This document shows, one piece after another, positions 3,538-31,319 of a stretch of DNA of 64,000 bases. Under the pieces are notes generated by a model, which saw only the letters and a list, made by a program, of their open reading frames with translations, did no database searches and was not told the origin of the DNA. Source of the stretch: Candidatus Marinacidobacterales bacterium (lineage in GTDB: Bacteria; Acidobacteriota; Vicinamibacteria; Marinacidobacterales; SMYC01). The translations under genes and the position numbers were made by a program. Position 1 is the first letter of the stretch. Each line of letters starts with the position of its first letter. The stretch is taken from contig CBDCYI010000005.1 of assembly GCA_965224085.1 (NCBI GenBank), positions 320,001-384,000 of the forward strand. Direction: 5' to 3'.

Positions 3538-3754
3538 CCTCCTCAACGTCCGAAAGCTCACACAGAATCGGTAGTAGAGCCAGACGGCGTGGCTGATGAT
3601 CTCGGGCGCAAATCGATATCCGTGGTAGCTCGGCGTGTCACTTTTCATCGGCCTAGTTTGCCAGACACGGCCTGAACTTGACAGCAATGGCACCGCCCGC
3701 GTGGGCGGAGGTCATCGGGGAGTGACCGAAATCGTTCGTTCACTCGAAAGTACC
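3538..3754 (-). mobile_element. IS6-family left-end remnant with 5' transposase stub; IR interrupted by a mini-IS110
   Basis: ATG 3648 gives MKSDTPSYHGYRFAPEIISHAVWLYYRFCVSFR(DVEE after a 1-nt shift), an IS6 N-terminus. IR halves aacttgac-ag (3675-3684) and tacc (3751-3754) rejoin to GGTACTGTCAAGTT on the minus strand. Confidence 0.85.
3683..3750 (+). mobile_element. Miniature non-autonomous IS110 derivative (64 bp between AG cores)
   Basis: Starts CAATGGCACCGCCCGCGTGGGCGGAGGTCATCGGGGAGTGACC, versus CAATGGCATCGCCCGGGCGGGCGAAGGTAATCGGAGACTGACC at the left end of the full IS110. Ends CACTCGAAAG, versus CAGTCGAAAG. AG at 3683-84 and 3749-50. Confidence 0.85.
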
Positions 3755-7360: not shown

Positions 7361-7637
7361 ATGAGACGTCTTTTATTGATTCTCGCACGGATCGTTTTCC
7401 CGGTCATGGCAACGGCGCAGACGCGTCCCATGACCTACGAGGACATCCTCGGTGTCAAGCGCCCCGCCGACCCGCAAAATCTCCCCCGACGGATCCCGCA
7501 TGGCCTTCGTGGTGAGTGAGCGGGACCAGAAGGAGGACGTCTACAACGAGGACCTGTAGGTGGTCGCCGCTCCGGAAGGGAATCTGGTGAGGCTGACCTA
7601 TGCGCAGAAGAGAGATCACTATCCGAGGTGGAGCCCG
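7361..7637 (+). pseudogene. 5' stub of an S9 peptidase
   Basis: GGAGG RBS; MRRLLLILARIVFPVMATAQTRPMTYEDIL...DPQ, frameshift in AAAA 7476-79, ISPDGSRMAFVV, in-frame TAG 7557-59, RLTY...PRWSP, then truncated. Confidence 0.8.
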
Positions 7638-7827
7638 GTGGGAGACACTCCTCAACCGCCTTGCCCTGTTTGCTCGAGTTCTGCTACGCTCACCCGGACT
7701 CAATCGGAGTGCACCGTCCCATCCCAGTGGGGAAATTTCGTGCGGACCGGGGCCGGACACGTTTGAATTTTCCTAATCCTAGTTTCGCCAGAAGGACACT
7801 AGCAAGCCTCCGCGTCGAACCGGCGAT

Positions 7828-10800
7828 GCAAGGCTCACCAAGCCTGCTTATCTCTGTAAACAAACGTCTGGAGGAAGGCATGAGAGGTGCAAGAGTATTT
7901 TTCTGGCGCTTGAACCTGGCTCTAGTGGTGACGGTCGGCCTGCTATGCAGCCCGAACCGGGCTCAGGCACAGCTCGTTGATGAAACTATTCTCGACAACC
8001 TTTTGTTGCGCTCCATCGGCCCCGCCGTCATGGGCGGACGCATCCATGACCTGGCCGTGGTGGAAGATCGTCCCTGGATCTTCTACATCGGTTCGGCTTC
8101 GGGAGGACTTTGGAAGACCACCAACAACGGAACCACCTGGGATCCAGTCTTTGACGATCAGGGGACTTCCTCGATCGGCGACCTCGCTCTCGCGCCTTCC
8201 GATCCCGAGATTGTCTGGGTGGGTACTGGAGAGCCCAATAACCGGCAAAGCTCGAGTTTCGGCGACGGGGTCTATAAGTCGACGGATGGCGGGAAGACCT
8301 GGAAGCACGTCGGCCTGCGCGACACCCATCACGTCGGACGCATCGTGATCCATCCCCAGGATCCCGACACCGTTTACGTCGCCGCTCTGGGACACCTGTG
8401 GGGACCCAACGAGGAGCGGGGCCTTTTCAAGACGACTGACGGGGGAAACACCTGGGAAAAGATCTTATATATCGATGAAGACACCGGAGTCGTCAACGTA
8501 GCCATGGACCCGGTGAATCCCCGGATTCTCTACGCCGCCGCGTACCAGCGACGGAGGACACCCTGGGGATTCAGTGGAGGGGGGCCGGGAAGCGGCCTCT
8601 ACAAGAGCTCCGACGGCGGGAAGACATGGAAGAAGTTGACCGAGGGCATTCCTGATGGCCCGACAGGCAGAATCGGTATCGATGTCTATCGCAGCGATCC
8701 CCGAATCCTCTATGCGCTGATAGAAAACCGTGAGGGAGGGGTTTTCCGATCGGAGGACCGGGGCGAAAGCTGGAAGAGGGTCAATGAGCTCAACCCCAGG
8801 CCCATGTACTACAGCCAGATATGGATTGATCCGAGCGACTCCCGGCACGTTTACGTGCTGGGCGGGCCCTTTTATGTTTCCGACGACGGCGGGAGGACGT
8901 TCGAGCAAAACACTGCCATGACGCCCACGTTCGATGTGGGAGTGCACGGCGACCACCATGTGCTGTGGATCGACCCCGCCAACGGCAAGCATCTTATCCT
9001 GGGGAGTGACGGCGGTCTCTACTTCTCCTGGGACAGGAGCCGCACCTGGGACAAGGTAAACAATTTGCCCATAGCCCAGTTCTACGCAGTGGGCGTCGAC
9101 ATGCAGAAGCCTTACTTCATCTACGGCGGTGCTCAAGACACTCACTCCTGGGGAGGGCCGAGTGCTACCCGGCACCACATTGGAATCATTAACTCCGACT
9201 GGGTTCAGATTGGCCCTGGCGACGGCATGTACCAGCAGGTAGACCCCGCCGATCCTAATATCATCTACACCGAGTCACAGGGAGGAGACATCGTTCGCCT
9301 CAACCATAAGACCGGGGATCGGAAAGACATCAAACCGCACCCCGGGGACGGCGAGTCGGAGTATCGGTTTCACTGGACTTCCCCCATCCTCATTTCCCCT
9401 CATGACCCGAAGACCGTCTATCTGGGCGGAAATCGGCTCTTCATCTCGAAGGACCGGGGAGAAACTTGGACGGCCACGGAGGATTTAACCCGGGCAGAGG
9501 AACGAGACAAGCTTCCCATCATGGGGGTAGTTCCCGACGAGACCACGCTCTCGCGGCATGACGGGGTGGCGGCCTGGGGTACCATCACCACCGTGGCCGA
9601 GTCTCCGCTGACTCCCGGCTTACTTTACGTGGGCACTGATGATGGCATTGTCCATGTGTCGCGGGATGGGGGTCGAACCTGGACTAGCCTGCAGGATAGG
9701 TTCGCCGGCGTGAATGAAGAAAGAGCTACGGTGAGCCGCGTCGTAGCCTCGCATGCCGAGCCGGGTAGAGGCTACGTCACATTCGACCGTCACCAGCTGG
9801 ATGACTTCTCCCCTTATGTCTTTACCACCGACGACTACGGGAACACCTGGAAGTCCATTGCCGGAAATCTGCCTCGGGTAGGTTGGGTTAATGTTCTCGC
9901 CGAGCATCCTCGAAACCCCAATCTTCTCTTCGTCGGTACGGAGACGGGGCTCTTCGTATCGCTGGATCGGGGCAACCGGTGGATTCGGCTTACAGGTAAC
10001 TTCCCGACCGTCCCGGTAGATGATCTCGTGATTCATCCCCGGGACAACGACCTCGTGGTGGGCACTCACGGCCGTTCCATCTACATCCTGGACGACCTCG
10101 CGCCGCTCGAACAGCTGAGTGAAGAGGTGCTGGCTTCGGAGGTCCACTTGTTTGACATCCGCCCAGCCATGGAGTTCGTGCTCGTCAAGCATGAAAGCTA
10201 CGGGGCCCAGCGGCAGTTCATCGGGGCAAACCCGCCTTTCGGCGCAGTCATCTCTTACTACCTGAAGTCGGAACCAGCGGGAGACGTCGAGCTTTCCATT
10301 GTCGACAGGAGCGGAAAGGCCCTTCGTGAGATCTCCGGGACAAAGCACTCGGGGGTAAATCGGGTGAGCTGGGACCTACGCCTTGCTGCTCCTGAAGGCG
10401 TTGACCAGGCGGTTGGCCCCCTTGTCCCCCCGGGACGCTACACGGTTCGGCTTAAGTTAGGTAAAAAGGAGCTGGCCAAACCGCTCGAGGTGGAGGCTGA
10501 CCCACTCTTTCCGGTCCCGGAGGAAGAGCAGGTTGCGCGCTACGAATTCCTCGTCACCGTGAACGGCTTACGCCAGACGATCCAGGAGGCCATCGATTCG
10601 ACAGAGGCAATTTCAGAACAGGTCCAAAGCCTTCTCGAGGGCACGCAGGGAGATCCTGAGGCACCGGAGGCTGTGATTTCGGCGGCTCGAACCATTGCCG
10701 AGGAATCGGAAAAGATCCGGCGCGCACTGGCGGGCGATGGTGTAGCACCGTTCTTCGCTGGACAGAGCCTGCGCTCGCGAGCAAACCGGCTCTTCACAAA

Positions 10801-11096
10801 CCTCGATGGTCGCGTCTTCTTCACTCCCTTCGGAAACGCTGTCCGTTACCCTCAGGGCACGCTGAGTGGGCCGACGCGCGTTCAGCGGGAGCGGCTGGCG
10901 TCGCTCACCCGGCAGCTGGACGAGCAGCTGGAGTTGCTGAACCGGCTTAGCCAAACCGCGGTTTCGGATCTAAACCGCCAGATGAACGAGGCGAACCTGT
11001 CCCATATCAAGGTGGGTGCACCGGTGCGCAGGCCGCGTTAGGTTAGGCCATAGCTGCTCCGCAACGTCGCCGAAACCTTCGTGTACTTCCGCTGAC
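7828..11096 (+). repeat. Direct-repeat copy 1 of a ~3.3-kb segment (copy 2 at 18587-21899)
   Basis: Both copies begin GCAAGGCTCACCAAGCCTG and end GTGTACTTCCGCTGAC, with long identical tracts between. Confidence 0.95.
7880..11041 (+). CDS. Secreted VPS10/BNR-repeat beta-propeller protein (glycosyl hydrolase-like), copy A
   Basis: Signal peptide, RSIGPAVMGGR, many SxDGGxTW Asp-boxes, helical C-terminus. Start placed at the ATG after GGAGGAAGGC rather than the ORF-track start. Confidence 0.9.
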   Translation: MRGARVFFWRLNLALVVTVGLLCSPNRAQAQLVDETILDNLLLRSIGPAVMGGRIHDLAVVEDRPWIFYIGSASGGLWKTTNNGTTWDPVFDDQGTSSIGDLALAPSDPEIVWVGTGEPNNRQSSSFGDGVYKSTDGGKTWKHVGLRDTHHVGRIVIHPQDPDTVYVAALGHLWGPNEERGLFKTTDGGNTWEKILYIDEDTGVVNVAMDPVNPRILYAAAYQRRRTPWGFSGGGPGSGLYKSSDGGKTWKKLTEGIPDGPTGRIGIDVYRSDPRILYALIENREGGVFRSEDRGESWKRVNELNPRPMYYSQIWIDPSDSRHVYVLGGPFYVSDDGGRTFEQNTAMTPTFDVGVHGDHHVLWIDPANGKHLILGSDGGLYFSWDRSRTWDKVNNLPIAQFYAVGVDMQKPYFIYGGAQDTHSWGGPSATRHHIGIINSDWVQIGPGDGMYQQVDPADPNIIYTESQGGDIVRLNHKTGDRKDIKPHPGDGESEYRFHWTSPILISPHDPKTVYLGGNRLFISKDRGETWTATEDLTRAEERDKLPIMGVVPDETTLSRHDGVAAWGTITTVAESPLTPGLLYVGTDDGIVHVSRDGGRTWTSLQDRFAGVNEERATVSRVVASHAEPGRGYVTFDRHQLDDFSPYVFTTDDYGNTWKSIAGNLPRVGWVNVLAEHPRNPNLLFVGTETGLFVSLDRGNRWIRLTGNFPTVPVDDLVIHPRDNDLVVGTHGRSIYILDDLAPLEQLSEEVLASEVHLFDIRPAMEFVLVKHESYGAQRQFIGANPPFGAVISYYLKSEPAGDVELSIVDRSGKALREISGTKHSGVNRVSWDLRLAAPEGVDQAVGPLVPPGRYTVRLKLGKKELAKPLEVEADPLFPVPEEEQVARYEFLVTVNGLRQTIQEAIDSTEAISEQVQSLLEGTQGDPEAPEAVISAARTIAEESEKIRRALAGDGVAPFFAGQSLRSRANRLFTNLDGRVFFTPFGNAVRYPQGTLSGPTRVQRERLASLTRQLDEQLELLNRLSQTAVSDLNRQMNEANLSHIKVGAPVRRPR

Positions 11097-11133
11097 GGTA
11101 CTTTCGACTGACACTCCCGGCCGAAGGCATTTT

Positions 11134-12522
11134 TCATGATATGGATTGATCGGGAACGAGGCTGAAGCCGAGTCGGGTAGCTTTGCGTCGGAGATTACTC
11201 AGGAGGCGTTGCTGGTATTGCCTTTCATAGGCGTCCTGACCGAGCTCAATGAACTCCTCTCCAGTCGCAAGCATGCGGAAGTAGATGGTCGCTATTTTAC
11301 GGGCGGTAGCTGTGATGGCCTTTGGAGCACCTCGTCGCGATCGGATTCGTCGATAGAAAGCGCCGAGCGCGGTTTGGGTATTGCGGACAGCGCACGCGGC
11401 GAGGCGAAAGAGTTTTGCAGCACGACTGGAGCTCATTGGGGTTGCCCGGCGAAAGATTCGACCAGCGGACTCCTTATTATTCGGTGCGAGAGCTAGCCAT
11501 GAGGTGAAGTGCTTGTCACTTTTCCACGGGCTCATGTCGCAACCGGTTTCTCCTACGAGCTGCAGAACGGCATAGCTACCTAAGCCGGGAACCCTGGTTA
11601 GGTCCACCCCCGTGAGTCCCAATAGAGACTCAGCGAGCGGAAAGCGCGGCCCGTTGCCGCTACGCGCTCGCCGTGTCCGTGGTTTCGGCTTAGGCCGAGC
11701 GTCCTGAGGCCGGGTCTCCAATTTGGACAGGCATCTCTCGATCCGCTTGTCACAGTCTTCCATTTTCTCTTGATAGAAATCGTACAACTCCACCGACTGT
11801 TGAAGAGCGAAAACATGCTCGCTCCGATAGTTACCTTCTAAGGCTTTCGCGATCGTGGCCTCATCGTTGTGGCAACGTTCATGCCTCAGTTTTGCTAGGT
11901 CACGAGGATCTCGCTCTCCTCTCAAGATCGCTCGGATGATCGCAAGGCCGGTGACTCCGGTCACGTCGCGCAGGACGTGTTGTAGCTGGAGCCCCATTTG
12001 GTTGAGCGCTTTGTGCATATGCTGAATGTGGCGAGCCGCTGACTCCACCAGCGAGCTTCGTTGGCGGGTGTATGCCCTTAGCTCGCAAATCGCCGATTCC
12101 GGCCGAAAGGTTTTTGGGAGTAGCCCGAATGTATGCAGCTGTTGCAGCCACTCCGCATCCGACACGTCTGACTTGCGCCCAGATACGTTTTTCACTTTGC
12201 GAGCATCGACCAGATAGACTTCAAATCCCTCGTCTTCCAACAACTCGTACAGTGAAATCCAATAAACTCCGGTCGACTCCATCGCCACCGTGCACACGCC
12301 GCACGCCTTCAGCCAATTGGCCAGCTCTCGCAGCGAGCATACAAAGCTCTGAAACGTGCGGACATGTTCGCCCTCAGGAGTGCGCCCCTTCGGGACTGCC
12401 GCCACGATTGACTCCGCTCCAATATCAATCCCTGCAGCATCTAGATTTACCGTGTCGAGCTCGTGCTCCAATTTTTTCCGTCTTGCTTGACGACTGCTTT
12501 TTGTCCTGACGCGACGTGCCAT
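11134..12522 (-). CDS. IS110-family DEDD recombinase/transposase
   Basis: AAGIDIG, VAMESTGVYW, GRKSDVSDAEWL, WLALAPNNKESAGR, KAITATARK. ATG 12522 follows AAAGGAG. Confidence 0.95.
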   Translation of the reverse strand: MARRVRTKSSRQARRKKLEHELDTVNLDAAGIDIGAESIVAAVPKGRTPEGEHVRTFQSFVCSLRELANWLKACGVCTVAMESTGVYWISLYELLEDEGFEVYLVDARKVKNVSGRKSDVSDAEWLQQLHTFGLLPKTFRPESAICELRAYTRQRSSLVESAARHIQHMHKALNQMGLQLQHVLRDVTGVTGLAIIRAILRGERDPRDLAKLRHERCHNDEATIAKALEGNYRSEHVFALQQSVELYDFYQEKMEDCDKRIERCLSKLETRPQDARPKPKPRTRRARSGNGPRFPLAESLLGLTGVDLTRVPGLGSYAVLQLVGETGCDMSPWKSDKHFTSWLALAPNNKESAGRIFRRATPMSSSRAAKLFRLAACAVRNTQTALGAFYRRIRSRRGAPKAITATARKIATIYFRMLATGEEFIELGQDAYERQYQQRLLSNLRRKATRLGFSLVPDQSIS

Positions 12523-12549
12523 TTCTCGCTCCTTTCGGCGCAACCAGGA

Positions 12550-12700
12550 GAGAGGGGCGATTCAAAACATTCTTTCGAACGGGGTCATGCCTCGCGACAT
12601 GCCACCACGGATACTCCCGCTAACCCTCCAGACCTTGCTGTCAAACGGGCACTGAGCACCATCGTACCTTCGGCCTTGACTCCCGGCTGCACTCGATCGG
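12550..12700 (-). ncRNA. Putative IS110 bridge RNA (boundaries approximate)
   Basis: Non-coding region upstream of the recombinase. On the minus strand it carries GGTAC (12664-68) and TTGACAG (12638-44), matching the target halves, and TCGAAAG (12572-78), matching the element end. Confidence 0.7.
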
Positions 12701-13082
12701 AGTCTACTTCCTCCCACAGATCTCAAAGGGTCAGTCTCCGATTACCTTCGCCCGCCCGGGCGATGCCATTGCTGTCAAGTTGAGCTGGTGACTGACATGA
12801 GCATGAATAGCGTCGACCGATGATCGTCCGGCGCGACCTCCAGTAAGTCAATGGCGCGACAGGTTCTCGTCAATGGCGCGACAGGTCCGGGTCTAGTCTG
12901 CGAGCCACTCGCCGGAAGATTGTTTCCGCTTTGGCAGATGCGGACTTGGCGAACCTGGCAAAGCGTAGAGGACGCTGGGAGAACGACTCGCAACGAGCGG
13001 AGAATGTCCTCAGCTTGAAGGACGAATTGAGTGGCAACGACCTCCTCCAGGGCAAGTTGTACGAGGTGACTGCCACCGGGGG

Positions 13083-14836: not shown

Positions 14837-17800
14837 TCATTGCTGCGCAGCGGTTCGCGCCGGATCCGCCTCCTGACCGCTGACCGCCTCTTCCGTCAGC
14901 GTCTGGTCCAGCAAGCGCAGTTGCTCCATCACGTGCGCCGATAGATCCTCGAACACGGCATACATCTGCTGGGTCGGTCTCGCGGCCGCCCCTCCCACGA
15001 CCCCAGTGAGCACCGCTAGCCGGTTGTTCAACCCCATGGGGAGCAGGTTGAACGTTGGCTTGGGACCGACGGCGCGCGTCAATGCGCCCTCGATCGCGCT
15101 CAGCTTTTCCCTGGCGCTCGCCGCCGCTGCATCGCCACCGGCGGCCCGCTCCTCCAATTGGCGACGTGCCTCGCGCAGCCGTTCGACCGCGTCGGTCACT
15201 GCCGAGAGCTGATCGCGAATTTGGACCATGAGCTCGAACTGCGCCCGGAGGTCGTCGTCGGTTGGCGCAACCCGTGGGTCCTTCCGGATCTCGAACCAGC
15301 GCTCGTACTCCTGCCCACCCACGGACAGCCGTGTGCCGTAGCGGCCCGGCGGCGCGGTCGGCGCCTGCGCGCGCGGGTACTCCCTACGCAAGAGCGATTG
15401 CGAAGTCAGATCGAGAATCGCCCCGTCGGGGGGTAGCTCGCGTGCGTTGGGATAGCGCATGTCCCACACGAACCGGTTCATCCCCGCGTCGGCCGGCATC
15501 CACAGATCGTCGTCCGCCTGGCTCGAGAATCGCCGAATCTCCTCGCCCTTCGCGTCCAAAATCGTCAGCGTTGCCTCGCCCGACGGCGGTTGCTTCAGGT
15601 AGTAATCGATCATCACGCCTTCGGGTGGATTCTCACCCGCGTTGAGGAAGAACCGCTTGACCCGGCCATCGGGACCTCGTCGGTCCTCGAACCCGACGAT
15701 GTCTCGGGCGCGGGCGAACTGGATGCCCGGACGGAACGACCGCATTGGGGAGAGCGACCGCACGGGCAGGTGGCGGTCGGTCGGCGCGATCTCGAACAGA
15801 TGCGTCGAGGCTGTCGTCACCTCGCGAGTGATCTGGCGCAAAGCCGTCACGTTGTCCATGATCCAGAACCCCCGGCCGTGCGTCGCCAGAACCAGATCGT
15901 TGTTCTTGACGAGCATGTAGAAGACCGGAACCGCAGGCAGGTTGCGCTGAAGCGACTGCCAGGACGTACCCGCGTCGAAGGACACGTACACGCCCGTTTC
16001 CGTCCCGGCATACAGCAGTCCCGGGTGAGCGGGATCCTCGCGAATCACCCGCGCGAAATCCTCGTCGCGAATCCCGTTCGTGATCTTTTCCCACGTGTGA
16101 CCGTAGTCCGTCGTTTTGTAGAAGTAAGGAGCCCGGTCGCTGACCTTGTAGCGGTTAGCCGCCAGATACGCCGTGCCGCGATCGTGCGGAGACACCTCGA
16201 TGGTGCTGATCGTTGTCCACTCGGGCATGTCCTTCGGCGAGACGTCGTTCCAGGTCTCCCCTCCATCCTTTGTCATATGAACCATGCTGTCGTCCGTGCC
16301 GACCCACAGCTCGCCTTTTTCGAGCAGTGACTCCGAAAGGGCCTGCGCCAGACTGACCCAGTACGACGAGGCCGACTGTGTATGGAGGGGGCCGCCCGCT
16401 ATCTTCTGCATCTTATCCTGCCGGTTGGTCGTGATGTCTGGACTGATGGGCTCCCAGGAGTCTCCCTCATCGGTCGTTCGAAAGACATGGTTGCCGGCGG
16501 TGTACAGAACGTTTGGATCGTGAGGCGACAGCAGGATCGGGAAGTTGTAGAAGAAGCGGTACTTCACGTCCTTGAGCGCAAACGTGAACTGGTCGTCGGG
16601 CCAAACGGTGATGTTCCGGGCCTGTCCCGTCCGTCGGTCGTAGCGCGTAATGCGGGTCCGATCGCCGGCGTACACGACGCTGCCATTGGGCTTGACGGCC
16701 GTCTGCCCGCCCTCGCCGCCGGGAATCACCTCCCACCCGATGGCAGCACTGTCGGTCCGGCTCGGCACCGAGACGTGCGAATTGTCGTTCTGGGCCGCGT
16801 AGAGCCGATAGGGCACCTGATCGTCGATGGCAAGACCGAACAGTTCGGGCGTGGGTTGATTGTGTATGGTCGACCACGTGGCGCCGCCATTGAGCGTCAC
16901 CGTGGCGCCGCCGTCGTTTCCCTCGATCATCCGCTGCGGGTTCCGCGGATCGATCCAAAGTGCGTGGTTGTCGCCGTGCGGCGTCGGTAGGGTTTTGAAC
17001 GTCTTGCCGCCATCCGTCGATTTCCAGAGCTGGTAGGACGGGAGATACACTGTGTCTGGGTCTCGTGTGTCGGCGGTCACGTGCATGTACGACGGGGCGT
17101 TACGTCGGAAATCGCGTCTTTCGTTGATCCGTTGCCAGGTCTGTCCGCTGTCGTCCGAGCGGAACAGGGCACCGTCTTCCGCCTCGATGATCGCCCAGAC
17201 GCGGCTCGGACGCGGCGGCGAGACCGCGATGCCGATTTTCCCGACCACCCCCTGCGGCAAGCCTGGATTGCGAGTAATGTCGGTCCATGTATCACCACCG
17301 TCGGTCGTCTTGAACAGGCCGCTGTCGGGTCCCCCGCTGATCTGGTCCCACGGAAGACGCTGCAGTTGATTGAGCGACGCGTAGAGCACATTGGGGTTCG
17401 TCGGGTCCATCGAGAGGTCGAGCGCGCTCGCCCGCTCGCTTTTGTACAGGACCTGCTCCCATGTCTTGCCACCGTCCTTCGTGCGATAGACACCCCGCTC
17501 GGGGTTGGTCCCGAAGATATCGCCCGCCGCCGCCACATATACGATGTTCGGATTCGTGGGATGAATCCGGACCTTCGCGATGTGCCGGGTTTCCCTGAGC
17601 CCTACGTGGGTCCACGTCCGTCCGCCGTCGGTCGACTTGTACACCCCGTCGCCAGGTGTCAGGTCCTGTCGCATTAGCGATTCGCCCATGCCGACGTACA
17701 CAACGGCGGGGTTCGACAGCGACACGTCGATCGCCCCTACGGGCGCCGTCTTGAAGAAACCGTCGGACACGTTCCGCCAGTAGGTGCCCGCGTCAGTGGT

Positions 17801-18073
17801 CTTCCAGACCCCGCCATGTGTCGACCCGAAGTAGAAGACCAGTGGATCTTGCGGGTCCGCCACGACCGCTATCGAACGGCCCCCTCGGTGCGGGCCAATC
17901 GACCGCCATTCGAGTGCGGCGAGAAAGCTCGGATCCACGCTTGGATAGTCGGCCGCCTGGGCTGCGCCCGAGGCGCTGGCTCTGGATTGCCGAGAGTAGC
18001 CCCATTCCGCAGCGACGAGCAGACACGCCGCCGATATCAACGCCACACCGAATCTAGCAGTTCTCTTTTTCAT
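14837..18073 (-). CDS. Secreted VPS10/BNR beta-propeller protein, copy C
   Basis: MKKRTARF signal peptide; WRSIGPHRGGRS; Asp-boxes; close paralog of 27428-30655. Confidence 0.9.
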   Translation of the reverse strand: MKKRTARFGVALISAACLLVAAEWGYSRQSRASASGAAQAADYPSVDPSFLAALEWRSIGPHRGGRSIAVVADPQDPLVFYFGSTHGGVWKTTDAGTYWRNVSDGFFKTAPVGAIDVSLSNPAVVYVGMGESLMRQDLTPGDGVYKSTDGGRTWTHVGLRETRHIAKVRIHPTNPNIVYVAAAGDIFGTNPERGVYRTKDGGKTWEQVLYKSERASALDLSMDPTNPNVLYASLNQLQRLPWDQISGGPDSGLFKTTDGGDTWTDITRNPGLPQGVVGKIGIAVSPPRPSRVWAIIEAEDGALFRSDDSGQTWQRINERRDFRRNAPSYMHVTADTRDPDTVYLPSYQLWKSTDGGKTFKTLPTPHGDNHALWIDPRNPQRMIEGNDGGATVTLNGGATWSTIHNQPTPELFGLAIDDQVPYRLYAAQNDNSHVSVPSRTDSAAIGWEVIPGGEGGQTAVKPNGSVVYAGDRTRITRYDRRTGQARNITVWPDDQFTFALKDVKYRFFYNFPILLSPHDPNVLYTAGNHVFRTTDEGDSWEPISPDITTNRQDKMQKIAGGPLHTQSASSYWVSLAQALSESLLEKGELWVGTDDSMVHMTKDGGETWNDVSPKDMPEWTTISTIEVSPHDRGTAYLAANRYKVSDRAPYFYKTTDYGHTWEKITNGIRDEDFARVIREDPAHPGLLYAGTETGVYVSFDAGTSWQSLQRNLPAVPVFYMLVKNNDLVLATHGRGFWIMDNVTALRQITREVTTASTHLFEIAPTDRHLPVRSLSPMRSFRPGIQFARARDIVGFEDRRGPDGRVKRFFLNAGENPPEGVMIDYYLKQPPSGEATLTILDAKGEEIRRFSSQADDDLWMPADAGMNRFVWDMRYPNARELPPDGAILDLTSQSLLRREYPRAQAPTAPPGRYGTRLSVGGQEYERWFEIRKDPRVAPTDDDLRAQFELMVQIRDQLSAVTDAVERLREARRQLEERAAGGDAAAASAREKLSAIEGALTRAVGPKPTFNLLPMGLNNRLAVLTGVVGGAAARPTQQMYAVFEDLSAHVMEQLRLLDQTLTEEAVSGQEADPARTAAQQ

Positions 18074-18638
18074 GGCACGTTCCTTTCGCCAGAGGGCATC
18101 CTGCAAAAGAAGGCCGTGGTTGACCTTGGCCAAGAGTATCCGTCGAAGGGGTTGGCATTCGCCCCTTCCGCCCTTGAACTTGACGTTAAGGCGGATGCAG
18201 ATGATGCGCCCGGCACGATGGAATAGGCGCGGCCTTACGCGCCGGAACGTAGCACGGCCAGTCCTTGAAATCAAAATTCGCAGGGAGTGTTAATAGGCAG
18301 ACCCTGATACTGGCGATGGCCCTACCGGACCGTCCGCAAAATCGGGGCAACGTCAGTTTGCGTTCATACCATGCACTGGGGTAGCGTGTGCGCCGCGTGA
18401 CCTTGACGGCCCGCCAGCGACCTCTGCACGCGGTTCCGCGGAAGTAGGATCTTCATCCCGGCACGAGGTTTGAGCGTGGCGGGCGTTCCCGATGAGTTCA
18501 TCATGGCTGCAGCACACGTGACTGAGAGTCAGGCAGAGACCAATCGGAGGACATGATGATGGTAAGGTCGAGAATCCAGTGGGTAAGCAAGGCTCACCAA
18601 GCCTGTTTATCTCTGTAAACAAACGTCTGGAGGAAGGC

Positions 18639-21600
18639 ATGAGTGGTGCAAGAGTATTTTTCTGCTGCTTGAACCTGGCTCTAGTGGTGGCGGTCGGCCT
18701 GCTATGCAGCCCGAACCGGGCTCAGGCACAGCTCGTTGATGAAACTATTCTCGACAACCTTTTGTTGCGCTCCATCGGCCCCGCCGTCATGGGCGGACGC
18801 ATCCATGACCTGGCCGTGGTGGAAGATCGTCCCTGGATCTTCTACATCGGTTCGGCTTCGGGAGGACTTTGGAAGACCACCAACAACGGAACCACCTGGG
18901 ATCCAGTCTTTGACGATCAGGGGACTTCCTCGATCGGCGACCTCGCTCTCGCGCCTTCCGATCCCGAGATTGTCTGGGTGGGTACTGGAGAGCCCAATAA
19001 CCGGCAAAGCTCGAGTTTCGGCGACGGGGTCTATAAGTCGACGGATGGCGGGAAGACCTGGAAGCACGTCGGCCTGCGCGACACCCATCACGTCGGACGC
19101 ATCGTGATCCATCCCCAGGATCCCGACACCGTTTACGTCGCCGCTCTGGGACACCTGTGGGGACCCAACGAGGAGCGGGGCCTTTTCAAGACGACTGACG
19201 GGGGAAACACCTGGGAAAAGATCTTATATATCGATGAAGACACCGGAGTCGTCAACGTAGCCATGGACCCGGTGAATCCCCGGATTCTCTACGCCGCCGC
19301 GTACCAGCGACGGAGGACACCCTGGGGATTCAGTGGAGGGGGGCCGGGAAGCGGCCTCTACAAGAGCTCCGACGGCGGGAAGACATGGAAGAAGTTGACC
19401 GAGGGCATTCCTGATGGCCCGACAGGCAGAATCGGTATCGATGTCTATCGCAGCGATCCCCGAATCCTCTATGCGCTGATAGAAAACCGTGAGGGAGGGG
19501 TTTTCCGATCGGAGGACCGGGGCGAAAGCTGGAAGAGGGTCAATGAGCTCAACCCCAGGCCCATGTACTACAGCCAGATATGGATTGATCCGAGCGACTC
19601 CCGGCACGTTTACGTGCTGGGCGGGCCCTTTTATGTTTCCGACGACGACGGGACGACGTTCGAGCAAAACACTGCCATGACGCCCACGTACGGTGTGGGA
19701 GTGCACGGCGACCACCATGTGCTGTGGATCGACCCCGCCAACGCCGAGCATCTTATCCTGGGGGGTGACGGCGGTCTCTACTTCTCCTGGGACAGGAGCC
19801 GCACCTGGGACAAGGTAAACAATTTGCCCATAGCCCAGTTCTACGCAGTGGGCGTCGACATGCAGAAGCCTTACTTCATCTACGGCGGCGCTCAAGATAC
19901 TCACTCCTGGGGAGGGCCGAGTGCTACCCGGCACCACATTGGAATCATTAACTCCGACTGGGTTCAAATTGGCTGTTGCGACGGCATGTACCAGCGGGTA
20001 GACCCCACCGATCCTAATATCATCTACACCGAGTCACAGGGAGGAGACATCGTTCGCCTCAACCGTAAGACCGGGGATCGGAAAGATATCAAACCGCACC
20101 CCGGGGACGGCGAGTCGGAGTATCGGTTTCACTGGACTTCCCCCATCCTCATTTCCCCTCATGACCCGAAGACCGTCTATCTGGGCGGAAATCGGCTCTT
20201 CATCTCGAAGGACCGGGGAGAAACTTGGACGGCCACGGAGGATTTAACCCGGGCAGAGGAACGAGACAAGCTTCCCATCATGGGGGTAGTTCCCGACGAG
20301 ACCACGCTCTCGCGGCATGACGGGGTGGCGGCCTGGGGTACCATCACCACTGTGGCCGAGTCTCCGCTGACTCCCGGCTTACTTTACGTGGGCACTGATG
20401 ATGGCATTGTCCATGTGTCGCGGGATGGGGGTCGAACCTGGACTAGCCTGCAGGATAGGTTCGCCGGCGTGAATGAAGAAAGAGCTACGGTGAGCCGCGT
20501 CGTAGCCTCGCATGCCGAGCCGGGTAGAGGCTACGTCACATTCGACCGTCACCAGCTGGATGACTTCTCCCCTTATGTCTTTACCACCGACAACTACGGG
20601 AACACCTGGAAGTCCATTGCCGGAAATCTGCCTCGGGTAGGTTGGGTTAATGTTCTCGCCGAGCATCCTCGAAACCCCAATCTTCTCTTCGTCGGTACGG
20701 AGACGGGGCTCTTCGTATCGCTGGATCGGGGCAACCGGTGGATTCGGCTTACAGGTAACTTCCCGACCGTCCCGGTAGATGATCTCGTGATTCATCCCCG
20801 GGACAACGACCTCGTGGTGGGCACTCACGGCCGTTCCATCTACATCCTGGACGACCTCGCGCCGCTCGAACAGCTGAGTGAAGAGGTGCTGGCTTCGGAG
20901 GTCCACTTGTTTGACATCCGCCCCGCCATGGAGTTCGTGCTCTGGAAGCATGAAAGCTACGGGGGCCAGCAGCAGTTCATCGGGGCCAACCCGCCTTTCG
21001 GCGCAATCATCTCTTACTACCTGAAGTCGGAACCAGCGGGAGACATCGAGCTTTCCATTGTCGACAGGAGCGGAAAGGCCCTTCGTGAGATCTCCGGGAC
21101 AAAGCATTCGGGGGTAAATCGGGTGAGCTGGGACCTACGCCTTGCTGGCCCGGAACGGGCATTCTGGTTGACGTCGCCTGCTCCTGAAGGCGTTGAACAG
21201 GCGGGTGGCCCCCTTGTCCCCCCGGGACGCTACACGGTTCGGCTTAAGTTAGGTGAAAAGGAGCTGGCCAAACCGCTCGAGGTGGAGGCTGACCCACTCT
21301 TTCCGGTCCCGGAAGAAGAGCAAGTTGCGCGCTACGAATTCCTCGTCACCGTGAACGGCTTACGCCAGACGATCCAGGAGGCCATCGATTCGACAGAGGC
21401 AATTTCAAAACAGGTCCAAAGCCTTCTCGAGGGCACGGAGGGCAACCCTGAGGCACCGGAGGCTGTGATTTCAGCGGCTCGAACCATTGCCGAGGAATCG
21501 GAAAAGATCCGGCGCGCACTTGCGGGCCCGCGGGGTGATGGTACAGGAGCGTTCTTCGACAGACAGAGCCTGCGCTCGCGAGCAAGTCGGCTCTTCACAA

Positions 21601-21836
21601 ACCTTGATGGTCGCGTCTTCACTCCCTTCGGGCGAAACGCTGTCCGTCAGGGTACGCTGAGTGGGCCGACGCTCGTTCAGCGGGAGCGGCTGGCGTCGCT
21701 CACCCGGCAGCTGGACGAGCAGCTGGAGTCCCTGAACCGGCTTAGCCAAACCACGGTTTCGGATCTAGACCGCCAGATGAACGAGGCAAACCTGCCCCAT
21801 ATCAAGGTGGGTGCACCGGTGCGCAGGCCGCGTTAG
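18639..21836 (+). CDS. Secreted VPS10/BNR beta-propeller protein, copy B
   Basis: Near-identical to copy A with clustered differences; same RBS context. Confidence 0.9.
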   Translation: MSGARVFFCCLNLALVVAVGLLCSPNRAQAQLVDETILDNLLLRSIGPAVMGGRIHDLAVVEDRPWIFYIGSASGGLWKTTNNGTTWDPVFDDQGTSSIGDLALAPSDPEIVWVGTGEPNNRQSSSFGDGVYKSTDGGKTWKHVGLRDTHHVGRIVIHPQDPDTVYVAALGHLWGPNEERGLFKTTDGGNTWEKILYIDEDTGVVNVAMDPVNPRILYAAAYQRRRTPWGFSGGGPGSGLYKSSDGGKTWKKLTEGIPDGPTGRIGIDVYRSDPRILYALIENREGGVFRSEDRGESWKRVNELNPRPMYYSQIWIDPSDSRHVYVLGGPFYVSDDDGTTFEQNTAMTPTYGVGVHGDHHVLWIDPANAEHLILGGDGGLYFSWDRSRTWDKVNNLPIAQFYAVGVDMQKPYFIYGGAQDTHSWGGPSATRHHIGIINSDWVQIGCCDGMYQRVDPTDPNIIYTESQGGDIVRLNRKTGDRKDIKPHPGDGESEYRFHWTSPILISPHDPKTVYLGGNRLFISKDRGETWTATEDLTRAEERDKLPIMGVVPDETTLSRHDGVAAWGTITTVAESPLTPGLLYVGTDDGIVHVSRDGGRTWTSLQDRFAGVNEERATVSRVVASHAEPGRGYVTFDRHQLDDFSPYVFTTDNYGNTWKSIAGNLPRVGWVNVLAEHPRNPNLLFVGTETGLFVSLDRGNRWIRLTGNFPTVPVDDLVIHPRDNDLVVGTHGRSIYILDDLAPLEQLSEEVLASEVHLFDIRPAMEFVLWKHESYGGQQQFIGANPPFGAIISYYLKSEPAGDIELSIVDRSGKALREISGTKHSGVNRVSWDLRLAGPERAFWLTSPAPEGVEQAGGPLVPPGRYTVRLKLGEKELAKPLEVEADPLFPVPEEEQVARYEFLVTVNGLRQTIQEAIDSTEAISKQVQSLLEGTEGNPEAPEAVISAARTIAEESEKIRRALAGPRGDGTGAFFDRQSLRSRASRLFTNLDGRVFTPFGRNAVRQGTLSGPTLVQRERLASLTRQLDEQLESLNRLSQTTVSDLDRQMNEANLPHIKVGAPVRRPR

Positions 21837-21971
21837 CTTCGCCATCGATCGGTAACATGCTCCGCGACGTCGCCGAAACCTTCGTGTACTTCCGCTGACA
21901 GCAAAGGGGCCAGCCTCACAAAAGGGCGTGGGTCGCCGGTTGCCGAGGCTGGCCCCAAAGGTCAAGGCCGT

Positions 21972-24404: not shown

Positions 24405-24883
24405 GGCGGGGCCATAACTATTCTGACCGGCGCGAGGTGCTTTTGAAGACAAGATTTAAATCCGAGTAGTCTTCTGATAGCAAGCGCTTCGTTTCGGTGA
24501 AGGAAGATCTGCGCCGGCGGACCTCGAAGAGGTCAAGCTGGGTTGCCCGACAGAAGCGAGGAAAGTTCGACGGCCCAGAGGGCCGTTAGCGCCAGTTCTC
24601 GAGCCGTAGCCCTCGAAGGGAGGAAGATTTCGGTTCTGGGCCGCTATTAGCGAGCCGCTCGTCGCCGAAGCCACGACTTCCGTATGCCGGGCTCGGCAGT
24701 TCCACTTATGGGCCCAGAAGCGTAATCAATTGGACTCGCTCGTCGGCGCGATTTAGCGTTAACACCTGGTGTGGCGAAGGTGCCCAAAGAAAGAGCCACC
24801 CGCCCCCGAGGAGGGTGTCGCTAATCGGAGTCGCCGTCGCCATCGATCTGCGATTTCTTTCGCTCGTTAGGGTTAGGTGCCAC

Positions 24884-30655: not shown

Positions 30656-31319
30656 TGCACTGGCGTACCCTGTGGTTGGGCATCCGGTGTGCATTCTACT
30701 GAGCGCAGGTTGAGAGCGCGCTCGCTCGCGGCTCAAATAGGAACCTCCCGAGGTTTTCGCCTCTTGGGCATTGAACCGTCATCTCCCTCGGCCATCCTTC
30801 ACTCTGACAGAAGTCGCTGCAAAGAAGCGGTTTGCCGATTCTGGATTTGTTGGCGAGTGCGTAGGTACTTCACCGAAGATGAATCAATGAAAACGTTTCA
30901 CCTTAGTCTGTTCTTTGGCGTCGCTTCCCCGCGTAGTGAGACTTAGAAAGCGTCGCCGAAACCGGCGGGCCACGGAGCAGAACAAGTATATGCCGGGTGA
31001 ACGCCGTCGCCGAGAACGGTTACAGACGAAGGCACCCGGGGCGGCCCCCACTGGCCCCAGCTGACGTTTCTCATTGGCAAGGGCTGCTCGTCGCCGAGCC
31101 ACGACTCCGTATGCCGGGCTCAGCAGTTCCACTTATGGGCCCAGAAGCGTAATCAATTGGACTCGCTCGTCAGCGCGATTTAGGTTAACACCTGTTGTGG
31201 CGAAGGTGCCCAAACAAAGAGCCTCCCGCCCCTGAGGACGGTTGCTTTCCGCTCGCTAATCGGAGTCGCCGTCGCCATCGATCTGCGATCTCCATTCTTT
31301 CGTTAGGGTTAGGTGTCAC

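What the first reader, a model, noticed from the sequence alone, without database searches (positions are those of the whole stretch)
3675..3754. 64-bp miniature IS110 at the same base of a second IS6 end
Seen: aacttgac-AG-[64 bp]-AG-tacc. The insert retains ~43 bp resembling the left end and ~10 bp resembling the right end of the full element, with several substitutions, and has no ORF or guide region. Inference: either a MITE-like unit mobilised in trans or a collapsed older insertion. Either way it is a second hit on the same target and brackets the cis ends.
Basis: seen in the sequence. Interest (0 to 1): 0.72.

Follow-up and report, generated by a model that had tools for sequence, protein, structure and literature searches.

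The report
Miniature IS110 element inside IS6 ends
The 64-bp insert is a real, multi-copy, gene-less miniature of an RNA-guided IS110-type insertion sequence that always sits at one fixed base in the tips of IS6-type transposon ends, which shows how little DNA such an element needs in order to move.

Summary
Window 3685-3748 is a 64-bp insert flanked by AG/AG. It lies 4 nt from the tip of an IS6-type end (GGTA-CT-GTCAA on the other strand). This is the same base at which the window's full 1,669-bp IS110-family element (11103-12771, minus strand) sits in another IS6-type tip.

It is not a one-off scar.
- The genome holds 19 full-length copies (at least 96.9% identical) plus variants.
- Eight of 40 related genomes, spanning 7 genera and 2 families, hold near-identical copies.
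- Across 59 loci the insert lies in 18 unrelated inner-flank families. These share only AAnTTGAC-AG...AG-TACC.
- Paralogous empty sites exist.
- Occupancy is 30 of 40 sites with a CT core and 0 of 45 with a TT core.

The full element's 249-nt leader carries bridge-RNA-like guide segments. TTGACAGCA equals the left target plus core plus the first 2 nt of the element. TCGAAAG equals the right end plus core. Both covary in 10 homologous elements. The miniature keeps exactly these donor half-sites and a compensated subterminal inverted repeat.

Best reading: a non-autonomous, MITE-like IS110 derivative moved in trans. Against this, the cognate guide gene was found in only 2 of 9 carrier genomes, and no excision product was seen. 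This is a new variant of a known kind.

The parts
3685..3748 (+). 64-bp miniature IS110-type element: left-end 43 nt, a 12-nt loop region, and a right-end remnant
   Evidence: 36/43 identical to the full element's left end and last 5/5 nt identical to its right end; 19 full-length copies in the genome
3683..3684 (.). left copy of the AG core dinucleotide (CT on the IS6 strand)
   Evidence: present at every junction of the miniature and of the full element
3749..3750 (.). right copy of the AG core dinucleotide
3751..3754 (-). outermost 4 nt (GGTA) of the IS6-type terminal inverted repeat; unique DNA follows
   Evidence: sequence beyond 'agtacc' differs at every copy; empty ends read GGTACTGTCAA
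3539..3682 (-). remnant of an IS6-family element: inner part of the left inverted repeat and the first ~35 codons of the transposase, truncated next to the M19 dipeptidase gene
   Evidence: 80-91% DNA identity to other IS6 5' ends; an empty homologue lies at G000:C5:2215637
3693..3708 (+). hairpin 1 of the miniature (CCGCCC-GCGT-GGGCGG), equivalent to the first stem-loop of the full element's leader, kept through a compensatory T:A to C:G change
3720..3745 (+). hairpin 2, made of the two arms of the subterminal inverted repeat (GAGTGA 3720-3725 / TCACTC 3740-3745) brought together around a 14-nt spacer (3726-3739) that includes a small CGAA/TTCG stem
   Evidence: homologous arms in the full element (GACTGAC/GTCAGTC) and in relatives
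11103..12771 (-). full-length IS110-family element (1,669 bp between the cores)
   Evidence: 7 intact and several truncated copies at 99.7-100% identity in the genome, all at the same target base
11134..12522 (-). IS110-family RNA-guided transposase, 462 aa
   Evidence: PF01548 88 bits, PF02371 34.7 bits; NF033542 257.9 bits, cut-off 140
12523..12771 (-). 249-nt non-coding left end, the presumed bridge-RNA gene
12636..12644 (-). TTGACAGCA: left-target guide (5 nt of target + AG core + first 2 nt of the element)
   Evidence: 9/9 match to its own left junction; at least 8/9 in 7 of 10 homologous elements, 0 of 90 cross-controls
12572..12578 (-). TCGAAAG: left-donor guide (last 5 nt of the element + AG core)
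   Evidence: 7/7 in 10 of 10 homologous elements, 6 of 90 cross-controls
11097..11102 (+). IS6-type tip GGTA plus CT core at the right-end junction of the full element
   Evidence: the duplicated upstream region at 21858-21899 stops just before it
12772..12797 (+). CT core plus inner part of an IS6-type inverted repeat (GTCAAGTTGAGCTGGTGACTGACA) at the left-end junction of the full element
   Evidence: (I9)

Best explanation
The 64 bp are a non-autonomous, MITE-like miniature of an IS110-family (bridge-RNA-guided) insertion sequence. The miniature keeps only the parts needed in cis. These are the first 43 nt of the left end (right-donor half-site CAATGGCA, the first leader hairpin, and the left arm of a subterminal inverted repeat) and the last ~12 nt of the right end (right arm of that repeat and the left-donor half-site TCGAA). 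It has no recombinase gene and no guide RNA gene. An IS110-type recombinase with a bridge RNA carrying the guides TTGACAG(CA) and TCGAAAG, such as the one encoded by the full element 7.4 kb away in this window, would recognise its abutted ends (TCGAA-AG-CAATGG) as donor. It would recognise AAnTTGAC-AG-TACC, the tip of IS6-type terminal inverted repeats, as target, and would insert the miniature at the AG/CT core. Shown: the anatomy, copy number, fixed site and orientation, empty paralogous sites, dependence on the core dinucleotide, and the guide matches with their covariation. Inferred: that movement is by bridge recombination in trans, and which element supplies the machinery.
For: (1) Copy number. 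There are 19 full-length copies at 96.9-100% identity on all four large contigs, plus one 51-bp variant, two 5'-truncated copies and one partial.
(2) Fixed site. Every miniature (20) and every full left end (10) follows ...TTGAC-AG. Every right end of the miniature and all 11 right ends of the full element are followed by AG-TACC and then unique DNA.
(3) Empty sites. Empty ends of the same IS6 subfamilies read GGTACTGTCAA, including an empty homologue of the window's own IS6 variant at G000:C5:2215637.
(4) Core dependence. 30 of 40 TTGAC-AG-(TACC) sites are occupied against 0 of 45 TTGAC-AA-TACC sites (Fisher p about 1e-14, overstated because the copies are kin).
(5) Independent insertions. 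On one identical IS6 haplotype there are empty ends, three miniature sequence variants, the 51-bp variant and a full element. The same miniature also occurs in IS6 lineages about 3% diverged.
(6) Spread. The 78-mer is 95-100% identical in 8 of 40 related genomes of 7 genera and 2 families. Across 59 distinct loci it lies in 18 inner-flank families. Positions -7 to -1 (TTGACAG) are invariant, -10/-9 are AA in 16-17 of 18, and nothing is conserved further in. AG-TACC is near-invariant on the other side. Ten plus six shared bases are too few for homologous conversion.
(7) Guides. The full element's leader contains TTGACAGCA and TCGAAAG in a scaffold conserved in 10 homologous elements. The 7-mer equals right end plus core in 10 of 10 (cross-control 6 of 90). 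The 9-mer equals the left junction at 8/9 or better in 7 of 10 (cross-control 0 of 90). The invariant target 7-mer is exactly the guide.
(8) Compatible ends. The miniature and the full element share TCGAA-AG-CAATGGCA across the abutted ends. The first hairpin and the subterminal repeat are kept by compensatory changes.
(9) Precedent. Cargo flanked by IS ends is moved by transposase plus seekRNA supplied in trans (PMC11187229, abstract and passages). A MITE-like partner of ISPpu9 is described (PMC12288879, passages).
Against: No mobility event was seen directly. The only public data that could be laid were assembled contigs; they break at the repeat and show no joints.
The exact guide-gene pattern is present in G000 (9 copies) and G021 (6 copies). 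It was not found in G002, G003, G010, G012, G016, G025 or G033, all of which carry the miniature. G012 has only truncated IS110-family frames and G025 none.
The miniature's left end is only 84% identical to the full element, so its true parent was not found. The 50%-identity homologues have unrelated ends and guides.
The top-strand guides (right-target and right-donor) could not be identified; own matches were no better than cross matches.
Some of the 13 copies in one IS6 subfamily could have multiplied by riding on IS6.
A 66-bp double-stranded circle would be very strained.
Confidence: 0.75

Rival explanations
1. Hitch-hiker only: one old, collapsed IS110 insertion in an IS6 end became part of that IS6, and all copies arose by IS6 transposition and horizontal transfer of the composite. 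The 64 bp never moved by themselves.
For: 13 of the 19 copies in this genome have the same IS6 subfamily flank with different outer flanks. 10 of these IS6 copies still have an intact 234-aa transposase frame. Seven carrier genomes lack the cognate guide gene. After insertion the tip reads GGTACTTTCGAGTG, which still resembles GGTACTGTCAAATTG.
Against: The miniature is at least 97% identical in 18 flank families that share only about 10 + 6 nt around the site. A single ancestral insertion would have diverged along with its host ends. Identical IS6 haplotypes carry empty ends, three miniature variants or the full element. Miniature variants do not follow the IS6 tree. Hosts include IS6 copies, ~110-bp IS6-type MITEs and tips already holding another IS110.
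Confidence: 0.08
2. It is mobile in trans, but its partner is not the window's IS110. The partner is an unsampled or extinct sister element with the same donor and target guides, and the copies seen today are mostly fossils.
For: The left end is only 36/43 identical to the full element, with compensatory changes that point to a separate lineage. The cognate guide gene is in only 2 of 9 carrier genomes. G010 has at least 20 copies in at least 12 flank families without it.
Against: The half-sites that the identified guides read (TTGAC-AG, TCGAA-AG and the CA handshake) are identical in the miniature and the full element. Both genomes that hold the full element also hold the miniature. No closer autonomous element was found in 41 genomes or in the 53 loci from the species collection. 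The copies are too alike (38 of 59 identical) to be old fossils.
Confidence: 0.3
3. It is a selected functional module of IS6-type ends, for example a double hairpin that insulates or regulates the IS6 transposase gene or blocks IS6 transposition. On this view it is kept by selection rather than by its own mobility.
For: It folds into two stable hairpins (-29.9 kcal/mol, z -2.8). It always lies upstream of the IS6 transposase start. It shows extreme sequence conservation across two bacterial families.
Against: Function would not explain how the same 64 bp reached 18 unrelated flank families at one exact base. A site-specific insertion mechanism is still needed. Many of these ends are empty in the same genomes. 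Its ends are homologous to an IS110 element's ends.
Confidence: 0.1

Closest known systems
MITEPpu9, the MITE-like partner of ISPpu9 (IS110 family) in Pseudomonas putida KT2440 (PMC12288879; passages read)
   Same: A short non-autonomous unit flanked by sequences like the left and right ends of an IS110-family element, present in extra copies, and proposed to transpose when the transposase is supplied in trans.
   Different: MITEPpu9 carries an sRNA gene (ssr9), sits in REP sequences and often lies next to its IS. The unit here is only 64 bp with no cargo. It sits in tips of IS6-type inverted repeats, is spread over at least 9 genomes of 2 families, and no parent with identical ends was found.
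[quoted passage not shown]
   Same: IS110-superfamily elements that insert at one fixed position and orientation inside the terminal inverted repeat of another transposable element; they have subterminal inverted repeats.
   Different: Their hosts are Tn3-family transposons, not IS6. Their non-coding region lies downstream of the transposase. No miniature derivative is known to me (recalled, not searched specifically).
IS621 bridge recombinase system (PMC11208160, passages; PMC13626964, abstract)
   Same: A left-end non-coding RNA with one segment identical to left target plus core and another identical to left donor plus core. The core dinucleotide flanks the inserted element. A 2-nt extension of the target guide matches the element's first bases, like the 'handshake guides'.
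   Different: The transposase here is 462 aa (the passages of PMC11187229 read give 315-330 aa for the IS492/IS621/Piv branch). The core is AG in the element's orientation. The subterminal repeat is 7 bp, against 2-3 bp. The top-strand guides were not located, and there was no Rfam match.
Engineered mini-IS: cargo flanked by IS ends, moved by transposase plus seekRNA in trans (PMC11187229; abstract and passages)
   Same: Shows experimentally that IS1111/IS110 ends alone suffice in cis when protein and RNA come in trans. This is the mechanism proposed here.
   Different: Those are laboratory constructs with a cargo gene. Here a natural element has shrunk to 64 bp.

Membership tests
IS110 family (full element, window 11103-12771) | DEDD-type transposase with the IS110 N-terminal domain and the Transposase_20 C-terminal domain | tested here: met
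   PF01548 88 bits (cut-off 29), PF02371 34.7 bits (cut-off 21.3); NF033542 257.9 bits (cut-off 140)
IS110 family (full element) | long non-coding region upstream of the transposase (IS110 type), short right end | tested here: met
   249 nt before the ATG and 31 nt after the stop
IS110 family (full element) | site-specific insertion without terminal inverted repeats; only the core dinucleotide is repeated at both junctions | tested here: met
   10 left and 11 right junctions, all ...TTGAC-AG / AG-TACC...
IS110 family (full element) | circular intermediate with abutted ends | not testable with these tools
   only assembled contigs could be laid
Bridge RNA / seekRNA | RNA segment matching left target plus core (pairs with the bottom strand) | tested here: met
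   TTGACAGCA 9/9 to its own junction; at least 8/9 in 7 of 10 homologues, 0 of 90 cross-controls
Bridge RNA / seekRNA | RNA segment matching left donor (right end) plus core | tested here: met
   7/7 in 10 of 10 homologues, including an AG to AA core change in L014; 6 of 90 cross-controls
Bridge RNA / seekRNA | segments complementary to the top strand of right target and right donor | tested here: inconclusive
   own matches (0-7 nt) no better than cross matches. GGTAC at leader 104-108 is a candidate, but GGTACC is a palindrome
Bridge RNA / seekRNA | match to a curated RNA family model | tested here: not met
   no Rfam 15 family reached threshold (best E 4.1, unrelated families)
[quoted passage not shown] | short, no coding capacity, multiple copies | tested here: met
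   64 bp; 19 copies in the genome; 59 loci in 9 genomes
MITE | ends homologous to those of an autonomous element | tested here: met
   left end 36/43; right end 5/5 (7/8) plus a compensated subterminal repeat
MITE | terminal inverted repeats and a target-site duplication | tested here: not met
   No terminal repeats (IS110 elements have none), only a 6-bp subterminal repeat. Only the 2-nt core is repeated. Hence 'MITE-like'.
MITE | occupied versus empty sites | tested here: met
   Paralogous empty ends in the same IS6 subfamilies and haplotypes. Orthologous presence/absence at one locus was not tested.
IS6 family (host of the insert) | IS6-type DDE transposase | tested here: met
   NF033587 213.5 bits (cut-off 125) for the 234-aa protein of the 806-bp element; PF13610 130.5 bits. 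The window fragment matches its first 35 residues at 83%.
IS6 family (host of the insert) | short terminal inverted repeats beginning GG | tested here: met
   GGTACTGTCAAATTGAG... / ...CGTCAACTTGACAATACC bound the 806-bp element in 5 of the 6 copies examined (the sixth, C4:1724801, also has the 806-bp end hit; the script printed 941 bp from a second, outer hit). The comparison with the IS26 repeat is recalled.

The most novel reading that the evidence does not exclude
The 64-bp unit is the natural minimal substrate of a bridge recombinase. Everything needed in cis lies between and including the two arms of the subterminal inverted repeat. An element of 66 nt is too small to form an unstrained double-stranded circle, or to loop its two junctions together as duplex DNA. 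Its spread to dozens of sites would therefore be natural evidence that IS110 elements can move through a single-stranded circular, copy-and-paste intermediate, as the IS621 cell-free work proposes (bioRxiv 10.64898/2026.08.31.748434; abstract read). In addition, this element and a second IS110 family member act as parasites of IS6. They split its tip at two different registers, and IS6 ends escape through a CT to TT change of the core.
Probability: 0.3. Interest if true: 0.85.

Novelty: new variant of a known kind. Interest (0 to 1): 0.66.

Why it matters
Bridge recombinases are being developed as programmable genome-writing tools, and two basic questions about them are open: what they need in cis, and whether the mobile intermediate is single- or double-stranded.

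This natural 64-bp element bears on both.
- It has multiplied to at least 59 loci in 9 genomes.
- It marks the minimal ends: an 8-nt and a 5-nt donor half-site, one hairpin and a 6-7-bp subterminal repeat.
- It is small enough to make the circle question testable.

It also shows an RNA-guided insertion sequence and its miniature living on the tips of another transposon family. Occupancy depends wholly on the core dinucleotide (30 of 40 CT-core sites against 0 of 45 TT-core sites). That pattern suggests conflict between mobile elements.

Searches for 'bridge RNA' + MITE, IS110 + MITE/non-autonomous, and IS110 + IS6 family + inverted-repeat terms found no report of an IS110-type element or miniature that targets IS6 ends. 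The supplements of those papers could not be read.

Tried and rejected
Rfam. No family matched at gathering scores over the whole window. Nothing meaningful appeared at E up to 10 on the full element.

Sequencing runs. All 22 runs offered are assembled contigs. In the four laid (X1, X2, X7, X10) the contigs break at the repeat and show no joint across or around the 64 bp, so nothing can be said about excision. The summed contig depth over the repeat bins is hundreds of times that of the flanks, but the tool warns that this is not a copy number.

IS6 target-site duplications. No 8-bp duplication was seen by eye in the flanks of IS6 copies that I compared, from the flanks printed for 29 copies, with or without the miniature. 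This could therefore not separate hitch-hiking from independent insertion.

A better parent. The ends of the 50%- and 40%-identity transposase homologues (L014-L022) do not match the miniature, and their guides differ.

The cognate guide gene in carrier genomes. An exact pattern and a loosened pattern both found nothing in G010, G012, G016, G025 and G033. The exact pattern was also absent from G002 and G003. A still looser pattern would match the inserted miniature itself, so it was not run.

Top-strand guides were not identified. The anchor used to find guides worked in only 10 of the 49 leaders examined; the other 39 were left out of the covariation counts. My first version of the junction search picked the junction instead of the guide; this was corrected.

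Rejected readings.
- The 64 bp are an intrinsic part of IS6 ends: empty ends exist.
- The IS6 repeat extends to 3771, as I first assumed: sequence beyond GGTACT is unique at every copy.

Supplementary files of the papers were not available. They may hold IS110 target catalogues that bear on the novelty claim. G027 is an unpublished genome. It enters only as one of the 41 genomes tallied and as locus L019, listed.

Full report
WHAT IS THERE. On the minus strand, the sequence inward of the insert is the inner part of an IS6-type inverted repeat. It is followed by the first ~35 codons of an IS6-type transposase (MKSDTPSYHGYRFAPEIISHAVWLYYRF...). This fragment is 83% identical to the N-terminus of the genome's 234-aa IS6 transposase. 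That protein is a clear IS6-family member: NF033587 at 213.5 bits against a cut-off of 125, and PF13610 at 130.5 bits. The IS6 remnant stops next to an M19 dipeptidase gene.

- It is 1,669 bp between two AG/CT cores.
- It has a 249-nt non-coding left end and a 31-nt right end.
- Its 462-aa transposase scores PF01548 88 bits, PF02371 34.7 bits and NF033542 257.9 bits against a cut-off of 140.

The insert matches its left end at 36 of 43 positions and its last 5 nt exactly.

WHERE EXACTLY IT SITS. It does not. For all 19 full-length copies of the miniature, the two 5'-truncated copies and all 11 right ends of the full element in the genome, the sequence after AG-TACC is different at every locus. 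Uninterrupted ends of the same IS6 elements begin GGTACTGTCAAATTGAG. The host element is 806 bp. Its left end begins GGTACTGTCAAATTGAG and its right end begins GGTATTGTCAAGTTGAC. Both the miniature and the full element therefore lie between GGTA and GTCAA, with the CT core (AG on the element's strand) on either side. This is 4 nt from the tip, the same base in every case, and always with the element's right end toward the tip.

IT IS MULTI-COPY. BLAST of the 64-mer against the laid genome (6.87 Mb, 12 contigs) gave 22 hits at E up to 1e-3. They break down as follows:
- 19 full-length copies (96.9-100% identical) on all four large contigs;
- two copies lacking the first 15 nt;
- one 26-nt partial.

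A 51-bp variant at C5:914561 was found separately.

Thirteen full-length copies are in the left end of the 806-bp IS6. Four are in a second kind of tip ('type B'). One is in a ~110-bp IS6-type MITE (C5:445364-445546). One, the window's, is in a diverged IS6 variant whose empty homologue lies at C5:2215637. The full element has 7 intact and several truncated copies, all at the same base.

OCCUPANCY FOLLOWS THE CORE. I counted every TTGACA[A/G] site followed by TACC, by the miniature or by the full element. Of the AG-core sites, 20 hold a miniature, 10 hold the full element and 10 are empty. Of the AA-core sites, 45 are empty and none is occupied (Fisher p about 1e-14). The p-value overstates the case, because many sites are copies of one another. 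All right ends of the 806-bp IS6 that were listed, and three of its left ends, have the TT (AA) core and are empty. Chance predicts only about 2 TTGACAGTACC sites in the genome.

HITCH-HIKING OR OWN MOBILITY. If the 64 bp had entered IS6 once and then ridden along, its variants should follow the IS6 tree. They do not. One identical IS6 haplotype is found with empty ends (3 copies), with the G, G* (one further substitution) and A variants of the miniature, with the 51-bp variant, and with the full element. The TGC variant occurs both in the main clade and in a lineage about 3% diverged.

The cross-genome data are stronger. The 78-mer (insert plus 8 + 6 flanking nt) is 95-100% identical in G002, G003, G010, G012, G016, G021, G025 and G033. 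That is 8 of 40 related genomes, from 7 genera and 2 families, with up to 22 scored matches each. Two further genomes, G004 and G018, show only 29-33-nt partial matches.

I fetched 40 of these loci and had 8 more. Together with the genome's own copies this gives 59 distinct loci, which fall into 18 inner-flank families when clustered at up to 4 mismatches in 30 nt.
- With one representative per family, positions -7 to -1 (TTGACAG) are invariant.
- Positions -10 and -9 are A in 16 and 17 of 18.
- Nothing is conserved further in.
- On the other side, AG-TACC is kept in 54 of 59 loci (the other five read AACC twice, TATC twice and TGCC or TACT once each), and the next positions are random.
- 38 of the 59 inserts are identical.

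Ten plus six shared bases cannot support homologous conversion. A single old insertion would also have diverged along with its hosts. Repeated site-specific insertion is the only reading that fits. Riding on IS6 may still have added copies within one subfamily.

THE GUIDE LOGIC. Durrant et al. describe bridge RNAs in which a left target guide has the sequence of the left target plus core, and a left donor guide that of the left donor (the element's right end) plus core (PMC11208160, passages). The abstract of Hiraizumi et al. 2026 adds dinucleotide 'handshake guides' (PMC13626964). In the full element's leader I found two matching segments:
- TTTGACAGCAA at nt 127-137, identical to its own left junction;
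- TCGAAAG at nt 194-200, identical to its right end plus core.

Leaders of homologous elements, taken from relatives and from the species collection, share a scaffold GCCCGT-[9 nt]-...-CCCGT-[7 nt]-AnTG. The anchor was found in 10 of 49 leaders examined; the rest were not analysed.
- In these 10 the 7-mer equals the sequence just after the transposase stop in 10 of 10. This includes L014, where the core is AA in both places. Cross-pairings give 6 of 90, all among three elements that share the same 7-mer.
- The 9-mer matches a site 121-156 nt upstream at 8/9 or better in 7 of 10, against 0 of 90 cross-pairings. Two of the three misses are tandem copies that have no target junction.

The invariant 7 nt of the 59 target sites are thus exactly the guide. 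The miniature shares TCGAA-AG-CAATGGCA with the full element across the abutted ends.

I could not locate the top-strand guides. GGTAC at leader nt 104-108 is a candidate, but GGTACC is a palindrome. Siddiquee et al. note that the order of the two target matches differs between families (PMC11187229). No Rfam model matches.

WHAT THE MINIATURE KEEPS. It consists of left-end nt 1-43, a 9-12-nt connector, and the last ~12 nt of the right end.
- The first leader hairpin is kept through a compensatory T:A to C:G change.
- The full element has a 7-bp subterminal inverted repeat, GACTGAC at left-end nt 36-42 and GTCAGTC just before the final GAA. Relatives have AGAAACT/AGTTTCT at the same places.
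- The miniature has GAGTGA/TCACTC, again compensated, and its homology to the left end stops right after this arm.
- A solo left end of the full element at C11:1174784 stops at the same nt 43.

The unit is, in effect, the two donor half-sites plus the two repeat arms folded onto each other (-29.9 kcal/mol, z -2.8).

WHAT SPEAKS AGAINST THE SIMPLE STORY.
- The exact guide-gene pattern occurs in G000 (9 copies) and G021 (6 copies). It was not found in the seven other carrier genomes.
- G012 has only truncated IS110-family frames and G025 none.
- The identical transposase is intact only in G000 and G021. It is N-terminally short in G003 and a fragment in G002.
- The miniature's left end is 84% identical to the full element, not close to 100%, so its parent is a sister lineage that I did not find.
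- No excision or circle junction could be looked for in raw reads.

Hence I give 0.75 for 'non-autonomous IS110-type element moved by bridge recombination in trans'. Within that, it is roughly even whether the window's element is the present helper.

COMPARISON AND NOVELTY. MITE-like partners of IS110-family elements are in print: MITEPpu9 (PMC12288879). [quoted passage not shown] Three things are new here:
- the host, which is the tip of IS6-type repeats, including IS6-derived MITEs;
- the extreme reduction to 64 bp without cargo;
- the spread of an almost invariant copy across two bacterial families.

My literature searches found no report of this, but supplements were closed. A 66-nt unit is hard to picture as a double-stranded circle. 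A 2026 preprint proposes single-stranded circles and donor-only recognition for IS621 excision (abstract). This element would be a natural test case. That last step is my inference.

CONTEXT. The record title of relative G002 (L103) reads 'MAG: Candidatus Marinacidobacterales bacterium'. G002 is placed in the same genus as the window's genome.

Noticed in passing
G000:C9:13100-15220 and seven other loci (e.g. C4:31553-32490, C4:170334-171272); not in the window: A second IS110-family element (428-aa frame, 37% identical to the window's transposase) is itself inserted in IS6-type inverted repeats at another register: GGTAYTGTCA-AG-[element]-AG-TTGA... Its left end points toward the tip. The 'type B' flank of four miniature copies is an IS6 tip followed by this element's left end, so some tips are doubly occupied.
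   Followed up: partly
G000:C4:37898-38018 and about 24 other loci: A ~116-121-bp repeat begins with the IS6 tip plus the left end of the second IS110 element and ends with sequence like that element's right end. It may be a miniature of that second element.
   Followed up: no
G000:C4:1695373 (left end of an 806-bp IS6 copy): This tip reads GGTACT-TTCGA-ATTGAG instead of GGTACT-GTCAA-ATTGAG. The 5 nt next to the core are those of the IS110 right end, at unchanged length. This is a possible footprint of an imprecise excision. C9:841566 has a half-way form, TTCAA.
   Followed up: no
G000:C9:107153-107261, C11:614732-614839, C9:576858-576976, C5:445364-445546: These are ~110-bp MITEs with IS6-type terminal inverted repeats. 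One end has a CT core (hit by the full element or by the miniature) and the other a TT core (empty). The result is a miniature IS110 nested in a miniature IS6.
   Followed up: partly
window 12572-12644 versus window 3678-3750: The distance between TTGACAGCA and TCGAAAG is 57 nt both in the leader RNA gene and across the inserted miniature. Homologous leaders have 51-73 nt, so this may be chance.
   Followed up: no
G000:C11:1174784-1174826: A solo left end of the full element is identical for exactly 43 nt and then unrelated. This is the same break point as the left-end part of the miniature, just after the subterminal repeat arm.
   Followed up: no
G000:C5:914510-914561 and G000:C4:52140-52190: There are two odd relatives of the miniature. 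One is a 51-bp version with a different right end (…GTGTTC-AG-TACC). The other is a palindromic piece, GGTACTTTCGAGTGA-CCGAAATCGTTCG-TTCACTCAAAAGCACC, that looks like two right ends facing each other.
   Followed up: no
window 7628-11041 / 18387-21840 and 15423-18051 / 27447-30078: The window holds large diverged duplications of ~1,140-aa proteins rich in repeated '(Y/F)(K/R)(S/T)xDGGxTW' motifs (95-98% and 89-90% DNA identity). The full IS110 and its IS6 tip sit exactly where one duplicate's downstream sequence diverges from the other (11096 versus 21899).
   Followed up: no
window 24679-25158 / 31106-31594 and 2077-2175 / 26893-26991 / 33329-33427: Further direct repeats of gene-sized segments lie about 6.4 kb apart (97% identity). 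They suggest tandem duplication of a gene block. I did not examine them.
   Followed up: no
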